Source: a virus (taxonomy: Duplodnaviria > Heunggongvirae > Uroviricota > Caudoviricetes). From it: 64,000 nucleotides of DNA. Positions 35,958 through 43,377 of the stretch are shown piece by piece. Each line of letters opens with the position of its first letter. Positions within the stretch are counted from its first letter, which is position 1. Below the pieces are notes generated by a model that was not told where the DNA came from, did not search any database, and worked only from the letters and a program-made list of their open reading frames with translations. The translations under genes and the position numbers were made by a program. The DNA is taken from positions 64,001 through 128,000 of IMG/VR virus record IMGVR_UViG_3300029288_000055; one strand, written 5' to 3'.

Positions 35958-37055
35958 TTACAAACTAAAATTTTTCTGTTTACGTGCTTTATTTCTAAGT
36001 TCACTTATCTGTCTGTATGCATTTGGATTAAACCTTTCCCTCTTAATGATGCTTACAAGATGATTAAATTCATTTTCAGTAAGAACCTGTCCAACATAAC
36101 CTTCAGTCTTAAGAACATAACTCTTTGGAGCAGTCCTTGATGTAGACTGACCTTCTGTATCAAGTTCAGCATCAAACTGAAGTTCAAGAACTTCTTGAAT
36201 CTTTTCATGAACGCTTGCAGTCATTCTTTCCTTTGTTTTCTTCAATGCTTTTTCAAGCAAATCAACAACGGTAGTACGATTATCCTTCTTAAGTTCTTCA
36301 TATGACTGAGTAAACTCATTCACAGAAGTCTTGTGCTGCAATTCACTTATGATTGCAAGTGAGCCATAACAGTCCCTGATCATCAAATCCCATACCTGTT
36401 CAGCATATGTGAATGAAGGAAATTTGTCTATTGCAACAATTTCACCATCAATCAATACGATAATACCGATAAGATTTTTTGGACGTTCAAAATGTGCAAT
36501 GAACTGTTCAAGTTTCTTGTCATACTTGTTAAAATAAACATCAAGATAGTTACCTGCACCTGAATTAGTATCTCTACCTAATTTTTCAATTGCAGGATAA
36601 ATTCTTGAATATGAATTTGGCTTTCCGATTGAATCAAAAAGCATTTCACGCATTGAAACAGGAATCATTCTGAACTCCTGAGTACCACGGAAATAACCGC
36701 CCTGACTACCCTGAACACAACCTGCATCATGGTAAGTTACATTTGCCTTTGGAGAAACATAACCAGCTTTAATCATGCCGTGATTCTGGGCAACCTGCTT
36801 AGTAATAACAGCCATTTGTGTAGGAAGAATAACTTCCTTATTTTCGTTATTAGAAAAGCTGATTTGACCATATTGTGAGTTACTTGATGTCAATGATGTC
36901 AATGGATTCGCAAAACGATCATCCATTGAATATTCAACATCAGTTGTAAGGCAAACAACTTGCATATTTAATATGCTTTGTACCACAATATTACCATCTT
37001 TGTCTTTGACAGGACGGCAACCTTTTAACATTTCTGATAAATCTTTTGTATTCAT
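35958..37055 (-). CDS. ARPP-like (DUF6569-related) protein
   Basis: N..VILP..AV...AQNH...AGCVQ..QGG and GIIVLIDGEIVAIDKFPS...W resemble my recollection of ARPP-family motifs; not verified by search. Confidence 0.5.
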   Translation of the reverse strand: MNTKDLSEMLKGCRPVKDKDGNIVVQSILNMQVVCLTTDVEYSMDDRFANPLTSLTSSNSQYGQISFSNNENKEVILPTQMAVITKQVAQNHGMIKAGYVSPKANVTYHDAGCVQGSQGGYFRGTQEFRMIPVSMREMLFDSIGKPNSYSRIYPAIEKLGRDTNSGAGNYLDVYFNKYDKKLEQFIAHFERPKNLIGIIVLIDGEIVAIDKFPSFTYAEQVWDLMIRDCYGSLAIISELQHKTSVNEFTQSYEELKKDNRTTVVDLLEKALKKTKERMTASVHEKIQEVLELQFDAELDTEGQSTSRTAPKSYVLKTEGYVGQVLTENEFNHLVSIIKRERFNPNAYRQISELRNKARKQKNFSL

Positions 37056-37066
37056 GGTATAAATAT

Positions 37067-38707
37067 TTAAGCGTTAATACTAATTTTTTTTGTTCTCTTA
37101 ACAGGTGCTGCTTCAAGAGCAAGAACCTGATTTTCTAACCAACGTTTTGTGTCGATTTCAAGTAATCTTGCATTGATCTGTGTTTGAATTGCAACAGGAT
37201 TGTTAATCGCCATTGTAACCACTCCAGCACCTAATGCTCTTACATTACCACCTGTTTCAGCACCAGTGATTGGTGAAATCTGGAAGATAGGTATTACACT
37301 ACCAGATTCGGCTTTCCAGATTTGAATAACTTCGTTAGTCATACCATCGTAAGCATTTTCGTAACCATCAGTTATAATAAAAATTGCATCGTATGGTTTT
37401 TCTGGACGTTCTTCCTTCAAAAGTTCAATGAATGAACTTGCAAGATCACTTGCGAAACCTTTAGTATCTACTCTATTAGATTCATTTGCCGAAGCCATAA
37501 GAACCAATGAAGTAAAATCAGCGATTGCCCGTGGAGTATTCTTTGATTCTAACTTATTACCAGTCATCGACACACTGTCGTCAACTACAATACCAATATT
37601 CTGATAAAAGAAATTATTAATTTTCTTCTTTAGAGCAAGTTTTACAATTGCAGACCTAATTTCCTCAGTAAAAATAGTTTCATAACCAGTCTTGTAAAGT
37701 GCCATGAAGTCAGTTGCTTTTTCAAGTTCAACGTGTTTTTCAACGCCTAACTTTGCAGTTGACTTAGTTTGACGTACTTGCTGGTTTACAGAAGTAACTT
37801 CAACTGTTGATCTGATCATAGCCTTTGTAGCTTCTTTCTGAAGATCAGTTGACCACATAGTATGATACTGTGGGTGCTTTACAGATGAAATTAACCCAAG
37901 CAAAACTTCTTCTGGAACACTTTTAATACCCCTGATATCAACCTTTGCCTTCTGGTATTCACTCAAAAGAGGAAATTCGAAGAAATCAACATCATTATCC
38001 TTTTTAAATAAAAACAATAACAATTTGAATGCCTTTGTTGCATCACCATTAAAATATCTTACAATACATTCATTAACAATTTTAGCTTCTTTTTCGCTAT
38101 AAACGTTATTGAAAAGAATAGTATTATTGATAGCAACCTGCTTTTGTGCAATTGAAAGCAATATAGAAGTTTTTTTCAAACCATATACATGCTTCAATAC
38201 TTGTGCAATCTTATTACGATATTTCACTGCATAGAATTCAATATTAGGCTGACCCCAAATAAAGCCAAGCATAATTTTTCTTGATCTTTCGTTATTGATT
38301 TTCTTGTTTTTCAATTCAACGAAAAGACGAAGAACATATGGAAGACCGTTTTCAGTATAAAGATTACTTAATGCAGAAAGCACGGCTTTATCACTGATGC
38401 CATTATCATACCAGTCGATTGGGTTAACAATATTACATGCTCCGCCCTTTAAAGTCTGCTTAAATTCATTAAGCAACACTTCTGATACGAATTGACCAGT
38501 TGCTCCTTTCTGGGAAGCAATAATCAATGGAAGTTCCTTTGAAAGTTTATACAGTTTATCGATTTGAGTCTGTATAGCCTTCATCTGTTCGTCTCTGCTG
38601 TGGTAGTAAGTTGCTGAACTTTTGCTACCTGAAGCAATTGTTAAACCGTCAATTAATGACTGCTTAACTGCTGGAAGTGCCTTCTGTGTTAATACCAAAT
38701 TTTCCAT
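37067..38707 (-). CDS. TROVE/Ro60-like helical protein with C-terminal vWA domain (start revised to MENLVL)
   Basis: vWA MIDAS motifs VVDDSVSM and IITDGYEN; helical N-terminus with a TYY-S-xE segment like the TROVE start; ~546 aa, Ro60-like size. Confidence 0.6.
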   Translation of the reverse strand: MENLVLTQKALPAVKQSLIDGLTIASGSKSSATYYHSRDEQMKAIQTQIDKLYKLSKELPLIIASQKGATGQFVSEVLLNEFKQTLKGGACNIVNPIDWYDNGISDKAVLSALSNLYTENGLPYVLRLFVELKNKKINNERSRKIMLGFIWGQPNIEFYAVKYRNKIAQVLKHVYGLKKTSILLSIAQKQVAINNTILFNNVYSEKEAKIVNECIVRYFNGDATKAFKLLLFLFKKDNDVDFFEFPLLSEYQKAKVDIRGIKSVPEEVLLGLISSVKHPQYHTMWSTDLQKEATKAMIRSTVEVTSVNQQVRQTKSTAKLGVEKHVELEKATDFMALYKTGYETIFTEEIRSAIVKLALKKKINNFFYQNIGIVVDDSVSMTGNKLESKNTPRAIADFTSLVLMASANESNRVDTKGFASDLASSFIELLKEERPEKPYDAIFIITDGYENAYDGMTNEVIQIWKAESGSVIPIFQISPITGAETGGNVRALGAGVVTMAINNPVAIQTQINARLLEIDTKRWLENQVLALEAAPVKRTKKISINA

Positions 38708-38788
38708 AGTCTCAAATTTATTAGTTAAAATTAATGTGCAATTATACGAATAATATTTTAATAAGTTACAAAATAATATAAAAAACAC

Positions 38789-38839
38789 AAAAAAAATGGG
38801 TGAGTTAACGCATTTCTACGTTAAGTCCCCACCCATTTT
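38789..38839 (-). terminator. GAAA-capped long hairpin plus U-tract ending the ncRNA array
   Basis: AAAATGGGTG..TTAACGTA-GAAA-TGCGTTAA..CACCCATTTTTTTT. Confidence 0.65.
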
Positions 38840-38869
38840 CCTAAGAAAAACAAACACTTCTCATAATTG

Positions 38870-38963
38870 AGAAGAAGTTTAGTTGTAATTTGGTAAGTTT
38901 GTCCCGTCTCTCAATGGACGGGATTACATGTTTCAATCTACTGTATTCACAACAAGTTCTTCT
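38870..38963 (-). ncRNA. Carrier-stem RNA module D (hairpin cargo)
   Basis: AGAAGAA/TTCTTCT outer stem, GTTGTGAAT/ATTACAAC inner stem, ACAGTA motif, cargo hairpin TCCCGTC/GACGGGA. Confidence 0.6.
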
Positions 38964-38966
38964 TTG

Positions 38967-39024
38967 TAATTGTTGCTTCATAGTGGCACGCTCCGAAGAA
39001 CCCGACACTTCAACACAACAATTA
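38967..39024 (-). ncRNA. Stem-loop module with cUUCGg tetraloop
   Basis: TAATTGTTG/CAACAATTA, AGTG/CACT, GTTC-TTCG-GAGC. Confidence 0.5.
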
Positions 39025-39161
39025 TTTCTTTTTTTAAAAAACACTACACTTCTGCAGTGAAAAACCATTCTTAACCTGCGAATATATCAACATTCGCTCA
39101 AATGTTAGGCGGTATGCCCCGTTTTTATTTAAAAACACTGATACCAACAGCCAAAAACTTT

Positions 39162-39215
39162 AAACGGGTTGGGTTTAATGTGTCCGATTAGCGTTGACAC
39201 GACCCATTTCCGTTT
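39162..39215 (-). ncRNA. Three-segment stem-loop module
   Basis: AAACGG/CCGTTT, TGGGT/ACCCA, GTGTC/GACAC. Confidence 0.45.
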
Positions 39216-39223
39216 TAAAACTT

Positions 39224-39366
39224 AGGGAACAATTTAAAAGTATTTTTTGTTTTTGATTGCAAGTTTAGCCGACTTGTGACTTAACCGCTTGTCTAATTCT
39301 CCAATTGTGGCGGAGGATGATGGATTCGAACCACCGAAATTACTATAAACACTTTTCGTTTTCCCT
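39224..39366 (-). ncRNA. Carrier-stem RNA module B containing a circularly permuted tRNA-Ser(GCT) (YrlA/Y-RNA-like)
   Basis: Order inside the carrier stems (AGGGAA/TTCCCT and AAAAGTGTTT/AAATACTTTT): T arm GGTGG-TTCGAAT-CCATC, acceptor 3' strand ATCCTCC-G-CCA, linker, acceptor 5' strand GGAGAAT, D arm, anticodon arm CAAGT-CGGCTAA-ACTTG. Confidence 0.8.
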
Positions 39367-39393
39367 TTGTATTTTTAAAGAACACTTTTAATA

Positions 39394-39550
39394 AAATTAA
39401 GATGGCGCAGACCTATTGTGGCTGTCTTTACTCTCTCATTGCATGAGAACCATTCAATTACGGCTGACTTAACAACTACTACCCAAGTTCTTGTTCTCAA
39501 ACTGTACAGTAATCAAACAATCGCCATTTGGCATTTCGTAATCTTAATTT
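39394..39550 (-). ncRNA. Stem-closed module F
   Basis: AAATTAAGAT/ATCTTAATTT and ATGGCG/CGCCAT stems; ACAGTT motif; TGAGAAC/GTTCTCA. Confidence 0.45.
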
Positions 39551-39560
39551 CAAATAACTT

Positions 39561-39640
39561 TGAAGAAATTCGTTGGTCTTGTTTTAGTTTTACTCTGATT
39601 TCAAGTCAAATTGTTTACTGTAAAAACCACCAGTTCTTCA
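39561..39640 (-). ncRNA. Carrier-stem RNA module C displaying a Ser(TGA) anticodon stem-loop
   Basis: TGAAGAA/TTCTTCA, TGGTTTT/AAGACCA, ACAGTAA motif, TTTGA-CTTGAAA-TCAGA. Confidence 0.68.
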
Positions 39641-39645
39641 TTTTG

Positions 39646-39720
39646 TAGCGGAGGGTGGATTCGAACACACCGATCTTAACGTTATGAGCGTCACGAGTTA
39701 ACCACTGCTACTACCCCGCA
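39646..39720 (-). tRNA. tRNA-Met(CAT), initiator-like but degenerate
   Basis: TGCGGGG acceptor with 1:72 mismatch; TGACG-CTCATAA-CGTTA; TTCGAAT T-loop; extra bases in D and T stems; no encoded CCA. Confidence 0.75.
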
Positions 39721-39760
39721 ATGTTATGAGATTTTGTGAAAATCCCATGAAAACTATAAG

Positions 39761-39890
39761 GAAAATGGACAGTTTGTTTGTTATTTTTGTTTACAATGAT
39801 GGGGTTTCGACACCCCGACCTTCTGCTTTAAATGCGGACGCTCTACACTGAGCTAATTATTTACTGTAATAACAAACCGTTTCCATTTCT
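39761..39890 (-). ncRNA. Carrier-stem RNA module A containing a degenerate full tRNA body (anticodon position TTA)
   Basis: GAAATGGA/TCCATTTT and GTTTGTTATT/AATAACAAAC stems enclose TA-GCTC-AGTGTA-GAGC-G-TCCGC-ATTTAAA-GCAGA-AGGTC-GGGGT-GTCGAA-ACCCC. Confidence 0.75.
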
Positions 39891-39893
39891 TTG

Positions 39894-40030
39894 TGGGGAA
39901 GGGTGAGACTGAGTCACCATACAACTGTTTTACTGACAATTTGCTGTACCTTTTTCTGTAAACACAATCAGTTCTCCAGTAAGGAGTATTACGATTATAT
40001 TTTTTGAATTTTTATTCGCATACTTCCCCA
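39894..40030 (-). ncRNA. Stem-closed module E (first in array)
   Basis: TGGGGAAG/CTTCCCCA outer stem; internal GAGAACTG...TTTACAG similar to module C. Confidence 0.45.
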
Positions 40031-40074
40031 TTTTAAATTTCATTTTTACAAAGAACATTTGTCCTAAGACGATG

Positions 40075-40105
40075 CAAACATAATACACATTTTTTTAATG
40101 TGCAA
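40075..40105 (-). promoter_or_regulatory. Bacteroidota-type promoter driving the ncRNA array
   Basis: Minus strand TTGCAC...TATGTTTG (TAnnTTTG); a GTATTTAT motif also lies at 40163-40170. Confidence 0.6.
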
Positions 40106-40209
40106 GTATTTTCCAAAATATTTTTAAAAAAAATTTATTTCCGTGCAATCGTATTCGGATTAATAAATACACAATTTTTTTAAAAAAGTTACAAATTAAT
40201 GAAAATATT

Positions 40210-43200
40210 TTATTTTTTCTTCATTAAATTTTGATGAATTTCTGCTAATTTTAATCTTTCATGCATCGTCATATGCTCAGTAGATGGTTCATCAGGATTT
40301 TTCATATTTTTTTCTGCTTCTTCAATTTCTTCTCTACTTAAAATAATTTTTTCTTTTGGGGGTGAATATGATCGATTATTTTTATTTATTTCGTCATATT
40401 TTTGTACAATTCCTTCAGCAATTATTTCCTTTGGCAATGAAATATCTTCCAATTTTATTTCAATTTCATTCGTTTTTACAGTTTCAGTCTTTCCACTCCA
40501 ATCCAATAAATCATCTTTTTTTGGTGGATTTGTAATATTATTTACACCCTCATTTACAGCATCAGTTACAGCATCATTTTCATCTATTTCAATTAATCCA
40601 TCATCATTTTCAGTTTCATTTAATGCTTCTTTGGCAATATCATATATTTGTTTTATTTCATTTATAGATTGATCAGTTCTGGTTGTTTCAATATGCATAT
40701 TTATAATTTCAGCATCTTTTTTTTCAGTAATTTTTTCAAATTGTTTTAAATCAACAGGGTCATCATTAATTGTTGGGTCATTTACCATTTCAGTTAAACT
40801 TATCACACGCTTATTTATTGCAGCATGCATATCAATATCAGATGACTTTTTTATTATTTCATTTGCAGTATTGTTTATTTCATTAACATCTTCGGAATCA
40901 TGATGCTTCAGTATTGTTCTTACAGGATATCTTTTATCTTCAATTATAATTTGCATTGTATCATTATTAAAAATACAGTCAGTAAATGTTTGTCCATCTT
41001 GTGCGAATCTTGCTTTAATAATACGTATACTTGCAAGATTTGCTTCTTTTTGATCTGCAGTCTTTGCAACACTCATAAAAAAATGTGCTTTTTGTACTCT
41101 TTTAATGCTTCCACCAGATTGATATGCTTCCACATATTCCGCATTAAAACCACTACGATTGGTTTGTATTGCTGTCCATGCAGGTATATCAAAATCAGCA
41201 GCCAATGCTTCAAAAGATTTTATTATTACAAGTTCAGCTTCGTTTCTGTCTGGTGTTTTTTTATGTGATTCAAGACAATCCAAATAATCAAGAACTAATA
41301 TATCAAATTTATATCCATACTTTTTTTGATGTCTAAGCATCCAAGAACGAATATCCATCATTGTGGTATTCTCCTGACTAAATCTTTTTATAATAAGGTT
41401 ACCCTTACCTACCATTTCACTGGCTTTCTTATATGTAAGTTGTTTTACCAATTCACAATTTTCGTCAGTTTTACTTAATGCTATATTTGACCATATAGTA
41501 AAATGTTTACGTTGAATCTGTTCTTTAGTATCTTCAAATATTATCTGGCAAACATTTTTACATTCATCATATGCAGTATTTGCAATCTTGGTTAAAAGAG
41601 TTGTATTATGTGTTAAAATATAATCATCGATAACATATAAATGATTTTTATTTTCAACATATATACATTGTGCTTCTTCTTCATGAGAATATGAAATATT
41701 TGATATATATTTATTGAATTTATATTTATCTCTATATACAACACGATCTTGCTTTCTTTTTAAAAAAAATGGTTTTATTTCATCATTTAAAAATGATATT
41801 GTTAAAATATAAGATTTTTGTCCAATTTTAATTTCATTCTTATATTTATATTTTGGTAATTTTTCACACATACGACAAAATCCACCTAATGATAACACTA
41901 ATTCTCTAACATCATATACTAAATCTTTTGATGCCGTGGTAAATTGTATTCTTCCAGATTTTGAAGTGTATCCATCAGTATCCATCAATCCTTGTAACAA
42001 CGATATTCTATCCTCAATTGATGAATATAAATATTCTTTTGGAATAAATTTTTTGTTAGAAGTAACATTAAGTTTCAAATCTTTAATTAATTCATATAAT
42101 TTATTTTTTTTACCTTTTTTGCCAGTTATCGAATAGGATATAGTCTTAGAAATTTGTTTTAATGATAAATCTTCATATTGATCATTAATGATATTATTAA
42201 TACGATTAATAATATCATCATCAATTGATGTAAATCTTATTGAAGATTGAGTTAAACCACCATCACCAATTAATGCACCTAATAAATATGAGTTTATTAA
42301 TAATTCTTTTTTATTAAATTCTACGGCTTTAACAATTGGTATTCTATAATTTAATTTTTTATGATTTTTATTATAAATCACATAATTTTTAATTAATTCT
42401 TTTGTTGTAATTGGATTATATGAAAAATCGGGTGTTTTTATATGTTTTGGTTTACCATCAATATAATGTGTAGTATTTGCAGTACGTTGATTTAAAGAAT
42501 TGACTGACCATATGTGTTCTTCATCACAATATGCTGTCGTTTGGTCGTTAAATTCTATTTTATATATTGGTCTCTTGCCTTGTGGATAAACGCCCAATAC
42601 TTTTGTTGGTCTACCATCACTGCCTACAACCAAATCATTTAATTTAACATCACCCATTTTAATCCAACCTTCAGGAGTTAATAAATTAGCTGATAACGGT
42701 AAGCTCTTACCAACACCTGAAGGAGTTAATATAACACCAATTTCACCTTTTCCTAAACCACCACCTGTAAGAGTATCAATTACACCAACGCCAGTAGCTA
42801 TTGTTTGACGAAACTCTTTTCTTAATGCATGATCAATATTATCAAATACACTTATGCCATAATCTTCTTCATCGCCAATATGTTGAATTTTATGAAATTT
42901 TTCTTCAATTGAAGCAATTGTAGTTTTTTTTCTAATATCACCATTTTTTGTCGATGTAATAATAAACTCTCCAGTCTTTCGATACTCCTGTTGTTTAATA
43001 AAATTGGTTGTTTCAGTTCTAATTACATCGCCATCATGCAATATTTGTTTATTAAGAACTCTTTCATTCCACATTTCGATTCGCTTAATTACAGCAAATA
43101 AAGATTCTTCCTCAATAATATTATTGGGAGTTTTATAAGTATTAATTGCCTGTAATATGCTTTGATTCTGAAGATTTGGAACTTTTCCGTGTGCTTTATA

Positions 43201-43377
43201 GAATTCAAGTATTATAATAAAAAGTCTTTTAAGATTTGGGTCATCAAAATATTCAACTGCTAAATTTGGAATTGTTTTTTCTGCAAATTCTGGTTCGACC
43301 AGTAATTGCCACATCAAACGTTGTTGAAATTCGGGACCTAAGTATGCAGTTAGTGTATATTCAGTATTTTCAGCCAT
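40210..43377 (-). CDS. dnaB: DnaB/gp41-like replicative helicase, intein-interrupted, with long acidic C-terminal tail
   Basis: Walker A PSGVGK|TT split by the intein; LVLDYLD, TAIQTNR, KARF. Confidence 0.9.
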   Translation of the reverse strand: MAENTEYTLTAYLGPEFQQRLMWQLLVEPEFAEKTIPNLAVEYFDDPNLKRLFIIILEFYKAHGKVPNLQNQSILQAINTYKTPNNIIEEESLFAVIKRIEMWNERVLNKQILHDGDVIRTETTNFIKQQEYRKTGEFIITSTKNGDIRKKTTIASIEEKFHKIQHIGDEEDYGISVFDNIDHALRKEFRQTIATGVGVIDTLTGGGLGKGEIGVILTPSGVGKSLPLSANLLTPEGWIKMGDVKLNDLVVGSDGRPTKVLGVYPQGKRPIYKIEFNDQTTAYCDEEHIWSVNSLNQRTANTTHYIDGKPKHIKTPDFSYNPITTKELIKNYVIYNKNHKKLNYRIPIVKAVEFNKKELLINSYLLGALIGDGGLTQSSIRFTSIDDDIINRINNIINDQYEDLSLKQISKTISYSITGKKGKKNKLYELIKDLKLNVTSNKKFIPKEYLYSSIEDRISLLQGLMDTDGYTSKSGRIQFTTASKDLVYDVRELVLSLGGFCRMCEKLPKYKYKNEIKIGQKSYILTISFLNDEIKPFFLKRKQDRVVYRDKYKFNKYISNISYSHEEEAQCIYVENKNHLYVIDDYILTHNTTLLTKIANTAYDECKNVCQIIFEDTKEQIQRKHFTIWSNIALSKTDENCELVKQLTYKKASEMVGKGNLIIKRFSQENTTMMDIRSWMLRHQKKYGYKFDILVLDYLDCLESHKKTPDRNEAELVIIKSFEALAADFDIPAWTAIQTNRSGFNAEYVEAYQSGGSIKRVQKAHFFMSVAKTADQKEANLASIRIIKARFAQDGQTFTDCIFNNDTMQIIIEDKRYPVRTILKHHDSEDVNEINNTANEIIKKSSDIDMHAAINKRVISLTEMVNDPTINDDPVDLKQFEKITEKKDAEIINMHIETTRTDQSINEIKQIYDIAKEALNETENDDGLIEIDENDAVTDAVNEGVNNITNPPKKDDLLDWSGKTETVKTNEIEIKLEDISLPKEIIAEGIVQKYDEINKNNRSYSPPKEKIILSREEIEEAEKNMKNPDEPSTEHMTMHERLKLAEIHQNLMKKK
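41605..42705 (-). mobile_element. Intein with LAGLIDADG endonuclease (367 aa)
   Basis: Begins SLPLSANLLTPEGW and ends YILTHN before T; LLGALIGDG and LLQGLMDTDG blocks. Confidence 0.92.

What the first reader, a model, noticed from the sequence alone, without database searches (positions are those of the whole stretch)
39561..39640. Minimal module presenting only a Ser(UGA) anticodon stem-loop
Seen: an 80-nt unit with the ACAGTAA handle and a 5-bp stem closing the canonical 7-nt loop CT-TGA-AA. With module B, both Ser codon boxes are represented. Inference: the anticodon loop is the functional payload, which favours a decoy model over translational supplementation.
Basis: partly seen in the sequence, partly recalled or inferred. 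Interest (0 to 1): 0.72.

Follow-up and report, generated by a model that had tools for sequence, protein, structure and literature searches.

The report
Smallest phage Y-like RNA module
The 80-base unit is a real, conserved small RNA of a huge phage, most likely the shortest of several partner RNAs of a Ro60-like ring protein encoded next to it, but its serine "anticodon" is a lineage-specific accident of a variable loop and not its payload.

Summary
Window 39561-39640 (minus strand) is an 80-nt unit closed by two helices, with a conserved UACAGUA element and an apical 5-bp stem with the 7-nt loop CUUGAAA.

The unit is conserved. 50 distinct versions occur in related phage contigs, and compensatory changes support the two closing helices. 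The same handle closes three larger neighbouring units and occurs nowhere else in the 1.27-Mb assembly.

About 850 nt downstream on the same strand lies a 546-aa gene whose model has the Ro60 fold (Z 18.7). An ARPP-1 gene follows it. This protein pair and the handle motif recur in phages and in bacteria, there beside tRNA arrays.

The serine reading fails. Among 37 distinct 7-nt loops the consensus is CGGUAAA. Position 33 is U in only 5, and the "anticodon" positions drift. The constant features are the 5-bp/7-nt geometry, C32 and A36-A37.

Best reading: a YrlB-like minimal Y-type RNA, cut from a precursor next to a tRNA-Met, that docks on the Ro60-like protein through its handle. Binding and expression are untested.

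This scan has already reported the same Ro60-like/ARPP/handle-RNA system on other DNA (43 notes, at least 25 genomes). What is new here is the loop tabulation.

The parts
39561..39640 (-). The minimal (C-type) module, 80 nt: handle plus one apical hairpin
   Evidence: MFE and centroid fold; boundaries recovered independently from homologues; covariance model R1 scores it 83 bits, E 2e-15
39634..39640 (-). Lower stem, 5' strand UGAAGAA (contains the conserved GAAGAAC motif, together with C39633)
   Evidence: Pairs with 39561-39567. 99.5% of cells are paired in 29 homologues, and the outermost pair switches AU/UA
39561..39567 (-). Lower stem, 3' strand UUCUUCA
39623..39632 (-). Second helix, 5' strand (the variable 'N10' UGGUGGUUUU)
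   Evidence: Pairs with 39571-39580. 96.9% of cells paired; GC<->AU compensation at pair 13-70; U.G<->U-A changes
39571..39580 (-). Second helix, 3' strand AAGACCAACG
39616..39622 (-). Invariant UACAGUA element (5' side of the conserved internal loop)
   Evidence: Invariant in all 29 aligned homologues. It is part of the motif ARAAC-N9-11-[UG]A[CU]AG[AU], which occurs about 190 times on the sense strand and about 10 times on the antisense strand in 71 viral loci
39581..39593 (-). A-rich 3' side of the internal loop (homologues: ACU(U)AC-RAAA)
   Evidence: Alignment A2
39594..39610 (-). Apical hairpin UUUGA-CUUGAAA-UCAGA (the 'Ser(UGA)' stem-loop)
   Evidence: Stem kept in most homologues, with compensatory variants UCUA/UAGA and UUGU/ACAA. 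Loop tabulated
39646..39717 (-). tRNA-Met(CAU)-like gene, 5 nt upstream of the module
   Evidence: Rfam tRNA 24.7 bits, below threshold. ARAGORN calls tRNA-Met at this position in most related loci. Its 3' end lies 3-6 nt before the short module in 26 of 52 cases
39765..39886 (-). Sister module A: tRNA body (anticodon UUA) inside the same handle
   Evidence: R1 33.5 bits; Rfam tRNA 37.5 bits at 39793-39862
39226..39365 (-). Sister module B: rotated tRNA-like body inside the same handle
   Evidence: R1 25.4 bits, E 0.029; arms listed
38870..38963 (-). Sister module D: same handle with a GC-rich covarying hairpin, the last unit before the terminator
   Evidence: R1 34 bits; covarying hairpin among homologues
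38789..38839 (-). Long hairpin followed by a U-run: likely terminator or attenuator between the RNA array and the protein gene
   Evidence: Read from the sequence and the fold.
37067..38707 (-). 546-aa Ro60-like protein (helical-repeat ring plus vWA domain with a DxSxS MIDAS motif)
   Evidence: AF2 model pLDDT 92.5. The top 12 Foldseek hits are all Ro60/Rsr/phage Ro60. VIA Z 18.7 against 1yvr over 403 residues. D376/S378/S380 are conserved. No Pfam hit
35958..37055 (-). ARPP-1 domain protein, the constant downstream partner
   Evidence: PF20208, E 1.4e-14. A homologue lies directly downstream of the Ro60-like gene in 58/71 viral, 75/80 metagenome and 54/61 cellular loci

Best explanation
The unit is the smallest member of a family of Y-RNA-like non-coding RNAs that a group of huge phages encodes in an array just upstream of a very diverged Ro60-type ring protein and its ARPP-1 partner. 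Shown: it is an RNA-level, strand-specific, conserved structure. Its two closing helices and the invariant UACAGUA / A-rich internal loop form a handle shared with three neighbouring units that carry tRNA-like bodies. The handle, the Ro60-like gene and the ARPP gene travel together in phages and bacteria. Inferred: (1) the array is transcribed as one precursor; (2) the module's 5' end is made when the tRNA-Met 3-6 nt upstream is processed at its 3' end; (3) the handle docks on the Ro60-like protein as the stems of Y RNAs dock on Ro60; (4) the apical hairpin is a small effector or gate element. That hairpin has anticodon-arm shape (5 bp, 7-nt loop, C32, A36-A38), but what matters is its shape and the AAA, not a particular anticodon. 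It plays the role that the short hairpin-type Y RNAs (YrlB, Yrn2) play beside the tRNA-like YrlA/Yrn1.
For: Structure and conservation: covariation in both closing helices. The covariance model finds the unit in 50 of 71 viral loci and in 24 further metagenome loci, always on the sense strand. Lengths of 70-81 nt differ by non-multiples of 3, which rules out coding. Shared handle: R1 built only from minimal modules also hits modules A, B and D of this window and nothing else in the 1.27-Mb assembly. Protein partner: Ro60 fold with Z 18.7 and 403 aligned residues; all top hits are Ro60, including a phage Ro60 that binds two upstream Y-like RNAs (PMC12135203). Co-occurrence: the motif RR[AGC]AC-N10-12-U[AU]CAG occurs 73 times sense against 5 times antisense upstream of 24-30% identical homologues in Planctomycetota, Myxococcota and Bacteroidota, with ARPP downstream. 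[quoted passage not shown] The tRNA-Met 3' end lies 3-6 nt before the module in 26/52 cases.
Against: There is no direct evidence of transcription, processing or protein binding. The canonical Ro60-binding motif (GNCGAAN0-1G / GGUCCGA) is absent; the handle has GAAGAAC-UG instead. Rfam Y_RNA and YrlA models do not hit the array at E<=10 and reach at most 29.7 of 69 bits in related loci. The protein has no Pfam TROVE hit and only about 13% identity to Ro60. The unit's folding energy is not exceptional (z -1.22). RNAalifold does not carry the apical hairpin into the consensus structure. Thirteen of the 50 distinct versions show no 7-nt-loop hairpin, so the cargo may matter little.
Confidence: 0.6

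Rival explanations
1. Anticodon stem-loop decoy. The module displays a tRNA-Ser(UGA) anticodon arm to soak up or divert a host anticodon nuclease or another tRNA-Ser-specific toxin.
For: The loop CUUGAAA equals the loop of the genuine tRNA-Ser(UGA) genes of the same assembly. The hairpin has anticodon-arm geometry, which is rare by chance in this cargo (0.1% of shuffles). Sister modules carry whole tRNA-like bodies whose anticodons differ widely between related phages, as an arms race might produce.
Against: Only 3 of 37 distinct 7-nt loops are CUUGAAA. U33, the most invariant feature of real anticodon loops, is present in 5/37. The consensus is CGGUAAA. Thirteen of the 50 distinct versions show no 7-nt-loop hairpin. 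The stem is a weak AU/GU helix unlike that of tRNA-Ser. The constant parts of the unit are the handle, not the loop.
Confidence: 0.1
2. Cis-acting processing or stabilising element. The module is a structured trailer that directs or blocks RNases at the 3' side of the adjacent tRNA-Met and punctuates the precursor, with no life of its own as an RNP.
For: Fixed 3-6 nt spacing from the tRNA-Met 3' end. It lies in a dense array of tRNA-like genes with a recurring GUUCUUUAAAA spacer motif.
Against: The same handle also encloses whole tRNA-like bodies (modules A and B) and a distinct GC-rich hairpin (module D), and it occurs in bacteria immediately upstream of the Ro60-like gene. That pattern fits a shared protein-docking platform better than a tRNA trailer. 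In five loci the module sits 80 nt from tRNA-Met, with another element between them.
Confidence: 0.12
3. Vestigial module. It is a handle whose former tRNA-like cargo has been deleted down to a remnant hairpin, kept only because the handle still titrates or loads the protein.
For: The cargo evolves fast and in a mosaic way. Relatives with 82-85% identical proteins carry a different cargo (AUUU-AAGCC-AAAU), and others carry 5-6-nt loops or no hairpin. The consensus hairpin matches the phage's own tRNA-Tyr anticodon arm at 12/17 positions.
Against: A short module is kept at the same position in 50 of 71 viral loci. The 7-nt loop length, C32 and A36-A37 are conserved far beyond the flanking cargo. 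These features argue for selection on the hairpin.
Confidence: 0.1

Closest known systems
Short hairpin-type bacterial Y RNAs: Salmonella and M. smegmatis YrlB, D. radiodurans Yrn2 (Chen et al. 2014, PMC4201824)
   Same: A second, smaller RNA encoded upstream of and on the same strand as the Ro60 gene, beside a tRNA-like Y RNA. It is a long interrupted hairpin with a small terminal loop and is processed from a common precursor.
   Different: It has no GNCGAAN0-1G motif; its handle has GAAGAAC...UACAGUA. The loop is purine-rich, not pyrimidine-rich. The protein partner is Ro60-like by fold only. There are at least four units per array instead of two. An ARPP-1 gene is coupled instead of rtcBA/PNPase. 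Binding is untested.
Thermus phage phiLo Ro60 with Yrl1/Yrl2 (PMC12135203; PDB 9KOP, 9L5Y)
   Same: A phage-encoded Ro60 ring with Y-like RNAs in the upstream non-coding region. The structure matches the model here at Z 14.8.
   Different: The phiLo RNAs were found through CGAA motifs in a large internal bulge. Here there is no CGAA motif, the handle is different, and the RNAs lie in an array with tRNA-like cargo.
YrlA (Rfam RF02553), the tRNA-mimicking Y RNA
   Same: Belongs to the same kind of locus. The sister modules A and B of this array are tRNA mimics mounted on the stem.
   Different: This unit has no T or D arm. The RF02553 model does not hit the array. In YrlA the protein-binding stem replaces the anticodon arm, whereas here an anticodon-arm-like hairpin is all that is displayed.
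Anticodon arm of tRNA-Ser(UGA)
   Same: Identical 7-nt loop CUUGAAA on a 5-bp stem.
   Different: The stem sequence differs and the rest of the tRNA is absent. Orthologous modules carry CGGUAAA and other loops, mostly without U33.

Membership tests
Y RNA (Ro60-associated ncRNA; YrlA/YrlB/Yrn class) | Encoded within about 2 kb of a Ro60 orthologue, on the same strand | tested here: met
   The module ends about 850 nt upstream of the 546-aa gene on the same strand. The Ro60 fold has Z 18.7. The arrangement is kept in 71 viral loci.
Y RNA (Ro60-associated ncRNA; YrlA/YrlB/Yrn class) | 80-130 nt; 5' and 3' ends pair into a long stem interrupted by internal loops | tested here: met
   80 nt; helices of 7 and 9 bp with covariation, plus conserved internal loops.
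Y RNA (Ro60-associated ncRNA; YrlA/YrlB/Yrn class) | Conserved Ro60-binding motif GNCGAAN0-1G (bacteria) or GGUCCGA (animals) in the 5' strand | tested here: not met
   The 5' strand reads GAAGAAC-UG, invariant in 29 homologues. The motif definition comes from PMC4201824.
Y RNA (Ro60-associated ncRNA; YrlA/YrlB/Yrn class) | Match to the curated covariance models (RF00019, RF02553) | tested here: not met
   No such hit at E<=10 in 37500-41500. In related loci YrlA reaches at most 29.7 bits against a gathering score of 69.
Y RNA (Ro60-associated ncRNA; YrlA/YrlB/Yrn class) | Physically bound and stabilised by Ro60 | not testable with these tools
   Needs RIP or EMSA. The complex predictor offered takes no RNA.
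tRNA anticodon-arm mimic | 5-bp stem closing a 7-nt loop | tested here: met
   Present here. A 7-nt loop is found in 37 of 50 distinct homologues.
tRNA anticodon-arm mimic | U33 and purine 37 (YU-NNN-RN) | tested here: not met
   Met in this window. Across homologues position 33 is G 25, A 5, U 5, C 2. A37 is 37/37. The full pattern fits 5/37.
tRNA anticodon-arm mimic | Conserved or specifically selected anticodon (Ser UGA) | tested here: not met
   Positions 34-36 read GUA in 19 of the 37 loops; the others read GCA, CAA, UGA, GAA, UCA, GAA and AUA. UGA occurs in 4.
tRNA gene (tRNA-Ser) | Cloverleaf with acceptor, D and T arms | tested here: not met
   ARAGORN finds no tRNA in the window. Rfam tRNA does not hit 39561-39640.
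Ro60/TROVE protein (the neighbouring gene) | Helical-repeat ring plus C-terminal vWA domain with MIDAS | tested here: met
   Model pLDDT 92.5. Residues 16-516 align to Xenopus, human, Deinococcus and phage Ro60. DxSxS is conserved.
Ro60/TROVE protein (the neighbouring gene) | Sequence match to Pfam TROVE (PF05731) | tested here: not met
   No Pfam family for the protein or for 10 distant relatives, apart from weak vWA hits. No PDB sequence hit.

The most novel reading that the evidence does not exclude
The apical hairpin is a purpose-built mimic of the anticodon arms of UNN-decoding tRNAs. It has 5 bp, a 7-nt loop, C32 and invariant A36-A37 with A38 nearly so; A36-A37-A38 is the necessary determinant for MiaA-type A37 isopentenylation (PMC5699536). 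U33 is deliberately abolished and positions 34-35 are free. The hairpin hands an anticodon-loop-binding enzyme (a modification enzyme or a host anticodon nuclease) to the Ro60-like/ARPP particle. Together with the sister modules, whose anticodons differ between related phages, the array would be a panel of non-decoding anticodon baits that evolves in an arms race over tRNA cleavage.
Probability: 0.12. Interest if true: 0.85.

Novelty: new variant of a known kind. Interest (0 to 1): 0.55.

Why it matters
Ro60 and its Y RNAs are a conserved but poorly understood RNA-surveillance machine. Here a very diverged Ro60-like protein comes with a whole set of partner RNAs on one handle, ranging from complete tRNA mimics down to this 80-nt minimal version. 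The minimal unit has two uses. It is the natural substrate for defining what the handle alone does (binding, stoichiometry, structure). It also shows which features of the displayed hairpin are under selection: loop size, C32 and the AAA are, the "anticodon" is not. This corrects a tempting over-reading (a serine decoy) and narrows the bench experiment to a short RNA and one protein. The link of the protein pair to tRNA arrays in bacteria suggests a role in tRNA damage or quality control during phage-host conflict.

Tried and rejected
1. Alternative long-range pairing of ACAGUAAACAAU (39622-39611) with AUUGUUUGAUUACUGU (39516-39501). The partner is absent in the closest relatives that carry the same module (L003, L050, L034), so it is rejected as window-specific.

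2. The + strand ORF 39418-39648 (76 aa). It is rejected as coding because homologous units differ in length by non-multiples of three and show RNA-type compensation.

3. Permuted, split or intron-containing tRNA-Ser. The unit has no T, D or acceptor elements.

4. Rfam scans of the array found only tRNA matches and chance snoRNA-like hits.

5. Thermodynamic significance of the unit on its own: z -1.22, not informative.

6. Expression: no RNA holder was listed for 38790-40210.

Loci of distant protein relatives were obtained through the search for related loci instead. Two single-protein scans of viral contigs (P0131, P0140) found nothing.

8. blastn of the array against GenBank phages gave only short tRNA-derived matches.

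9. The sigma-70/terminator consensus scan gave no more promoter-like sites than shuffles. I make no promoter claim.

10. Complex prediction was not used, because it does not take RNA.

Full report
**Context.** The window is bases 64001-128000 of a 362.8-kb contig with 30.5% G+C. Elsewhere this contig carries 56 tRNA genes and a tmRNA. It is therefore a huge phage genome binned with a 1.27-Mb assembly. The finding lies on the minus strand in a 1.4-kb gene-free gap (38790-40210). The gap sits between a DnaB-like helicase gene interrupted by an intein (40210-43377) and a 546-aa ORF (37067-38707), which is followed by an ARPP-1 domain gene (35958-37055).

**Observation.**
- Lower stem: 7 bp, UGAAGAA/UUCUUCA.
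- Second helix: 9 bp, UG.UGGUUUU/AAGACCA.CG.
- Internal loop: UACAGUA on the 5' side and an A-rich stretch on the 3' side.
- Apical hairpin: UUUGA-CUUGAAA-UCAGA.

The loop is letter for letter that of the genuine tRNA-Ser(UGA) genes of the phage and of the co-binned genome, but the stems differ. The folding energy alone is not special (z -1.22). A 5-bp/7-nt hairpin with a YU-NNN-RN loop appears in 0.1% of shuffles of the cargo.

**Conservation.** The neighbouring 546-aa protein has hundreds of relatives and 71 loci in viral contigs.
- Upstream of the gene, the motif ARAAC-N9-11-[TG]A[CT]AG[AT] occurs about 190 times on the sense strand and about 10 times on the antisense strand.
- Extracting the units with short cargo recovered this unit's exact boundaries from the homologues.
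- In an alignment of 29 distinct versions, the two closing helices are paired in 99.5% and 96.9% of cells. Compensatory switches occur at pair 1-84 (AU 15, UA 10) and pair 13-70 (GC 15, AU 12), and U.G/U-A alternation fits only this strand.
- RNAalifold independently predicts the same 16 handle pairs, but not the apical hairpin.
- Unit lengths of 70-81 nt differ by non-multiples of three, which excludes the overlapping + strand ORF.

**Shared handle.** A covariance model built only from these minimal units (R1) scores the target at 83 bits. In the same gap it also hits 38870-38963 (34 bits), 39765-39886 (33.5 bits; a tRNA body with anticodon UUA) and 39226-39365 (25.4 bits; a rotated tRNA-like body). 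It hits nothing else in the whole assembly. The target is therefore the smallest of at least four units that share one handle and differ in what the handle encloses.

**The partner protein.** Pfam and PDB sequence searches are blank. A model built on 86 diverse relatives is confident (pLDDT 92.5, pTM 0.90). Its 12 best Foldseek matches are all Ro60: Xenopus, human, Deinococcus Rsr and Thermus phage phiLo. The second-look aligner gives Z 18.7, rmsd 4.2 Å and 403 aligned residues over model residues 16-516. The next unrelated entries match only the vWA domain, at Z of about 10. The DxSxS MIDAS motif is conserved. The gene thus encodes a Ro60-shaped protein that lies outside the TROVE sequence family.

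**The wider system.**
- An ARPP-1 homologue lies directly downstream of the Ro60-like gene in 58/71 viral, 75/80 metagenome and 54/61 cellular loci.
- Relatives with 24-30% identity occur in Planctomycetota, Myxococcota, Bacteroidota and other genomes. There they sit downstream of large same-strand tRNA arrays.
- These cellular loci carry the handle motif RR[AGC]AC-N10-12-T[AT]CAG 73 times on the sense strand and 5 times on the antisense strand, in 39 of 53 loci. Typically one copy encloses a tRNA-like body and a second, smaller copy lies next to the gene.
- The published description of ARPP lists other gene neighbourhoods and has no occurrence of 'TROVE' or 'Ro60' (PMC9503650).
- Jumbo phages are known to carry TROVE proteins occasionally (PMC7824862).
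- A phage Ro60 has been shown to bind two upstream Y-like RNAs (PMC12135203).
- Notes of this scan report the same three-part system in at least 25 other genomes. I reached the Ro60 fold, the ARPP coupling and the tRNA-array link with my own calls. The first lead to Ro60 came from a scan note.

**The loop, the point at issue.** Across the viral and metagenome loci there are 50 distinct short modules (78 instances). Of these, 37 carry a hairpin with a 7-nt loop, most often on the stem UUUGA/UCAGA.
- Loop counts: CGGUAAA 15, CGGCAAA 3, CUUGAAA 3, CAGUAAA 2, CGGAAAA 2, AGCAAAA 2, AGGCAAA 2, and eight singletons.
- By tRNA numbering: position 32 is C in 30/37. Position 33 is G 25, A 5, U 5, C 2. 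Positions 34 and 35 vary. Positions 36 and 37 are A in 37/37. Position 38 is A in 32/37.
This is uncorrected for relatedness, and four of the five belong to one related CUUGAA[A/C] group. In the first set it was 3/26, p 0.15.
- Relatives with 82-85% identical proteins carry a different cargo (AUUU-AAGCC-AAAU). Others have 5-6-nt loops or no hairpin.
- The stem shows compensatory variants (UCUA/UAGA, UUGU/ACAA), so the hairpin is real where it is present.
- The rotated tRNA-like sister module shows the same behaviour. Its anticodon-like loop varies (CGGCUAA, CGUGAAA, CAGUAAA, CUAUGAA, CUCUUAA, CAGUUAA, CAGUGAA, CUUUAUA, AUUUAAA), and half of these loops lack U33.

Selection therefore acts on loop size, C32 and the 3' AAA. 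It does not act on a Ser anticodon, and it does not act on the U-turn nucleotide that every decoding anticodon loop needs. A36-A37-A38 in an anticodon stem-loop is the necessary determinant for A37 isopentenylation (PMC5699536). I offer that as a lead only.

**Processing.** In most related loci ARAGORN calls a tRNA-Met(CAU) just upstream of the module. Its 3' end lies 3-6 nt before the short module in 26 of 52 cases. Here the corresponding tRNA-Met-like gene (39646-39717; Rfam 24.7 bits, below threshold) ends 5 nt before the module. That spacing suggests that tRNA 3' processing creates the module's 5' end. In M. smegmatis, YrlA and YrlB are likewise cut from one precursor (PMC4201824). This step is inferred, not shown.

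**Verdict.**
- The unit is most likely a minimal Y-type RNA, analogous to YrlB or Yrn2 beside the tRNA-like YrlA or Yrn1 (PMC4201824), and it docks on the Ro60-like protein through the shared handle.
[quoted passage not shown] I therefore file it as a new variant that works like a Y RNA, not as a member of YrlA/YrlB.
- The decoy model for tRNA-Ser is not supported.
- A broader bait or enzyme-recruitment role for an anticodon-arm-shaped hairpin is not excluded, and it is the most novel reading left.

Noticed in passing
window 39765-39886 (-) and the orthologous units in L022-L073: The tRNA body held in the handle just upstream of tRNA-Met has a different anticodon in almost every lineage: UUA here; elsewhere GUC, UCU, CAA, UAA, UUC, UCA, UAU, UUU, UGA, CGC, GUU, AUG, AUC, CCU. 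R1 hits enclose each ARAGORN tRNA by about 24 nt on each side. This looks like hypervariable anticodons on a conserved scaffold.
   Followed up: partly
window 39226-39365 (-) and 13 homologues: The rotated tRNA-like module keeps its T arm, closed acceptor and D arm, but its anticodon-like 7-nt loop varies freely and has A or G instead of U at position 33 in about half of the lineages.
   Followed up: partly
window 39393-39552 (-): A structured element of about 160 nt, closed by an 11-bp stem (AAAUUAAGAU.../...AUCUUAAUUU), lies between the minimal module and module B (MFE -41 kcal/mol). It has no Rfam match. Related sequence follows tRNA-Met directly in L036, L033, L038 and L041.
   Followed up: no
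window 39894-40033 (-): A perfect 7-bp GGGGAAG/CUUCCCC acceptor-like stem, with an adjacent 5-bp/7-nt T-like arm, encloses about 100 nt that contain handle-like motifs (GGAGAAC-N10-UACAGA). It is another, differently wired unit at the head of the array.
   Followed up: no
L161 (Minicystis rosea), L162, L164, L166, L168, L202, L157: Cellular homologues of the Ro60-like/ARPP pair sit at the end of, or inside, same-strand arrays of 12 to more than 30 tRNA genes. Directly upstream of the gene lie truncated tRNA matches (for example tRNA-model positions 6-65) enclosed in a long stem with the ...UUACAG handle.
   Followed up: partly
L199 (Bacteroidales MAG contig, 204 kb): The locus of a 30% identical Ro60-like gene also holds the 3' end of a GOLLD RNA (37 bits, cut by the locus edge), a group I intron (81.6 bits) and several tRNAs. 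It is probably another large phage or prophage.
   Followed up: no
window 40210-43377 (-): The DnaB-like helicase gene is interrupted by an intein (Hint plus LAGLIDADG domains).
   Followed up: no
window about 39385-39395 and after most modules in related loci: A recurring spacer motif GUUCUUUAAAA(UA) follows or precedes many modules. Another scan note reads it as boxA-like. I did not test it.
   Followed up: no
G000 contig C1, 195.9-237.4 kb (outside the window): A block of 56 tRNA genes, a tmRNA and a CUA-anticodon (amber-reading) tRNA lies on the same 363-kb contig. The contig has 30% G+C against about 36-40% for most other contigs, so it is a phage genome binned into the assembly.
   Followed up: partly
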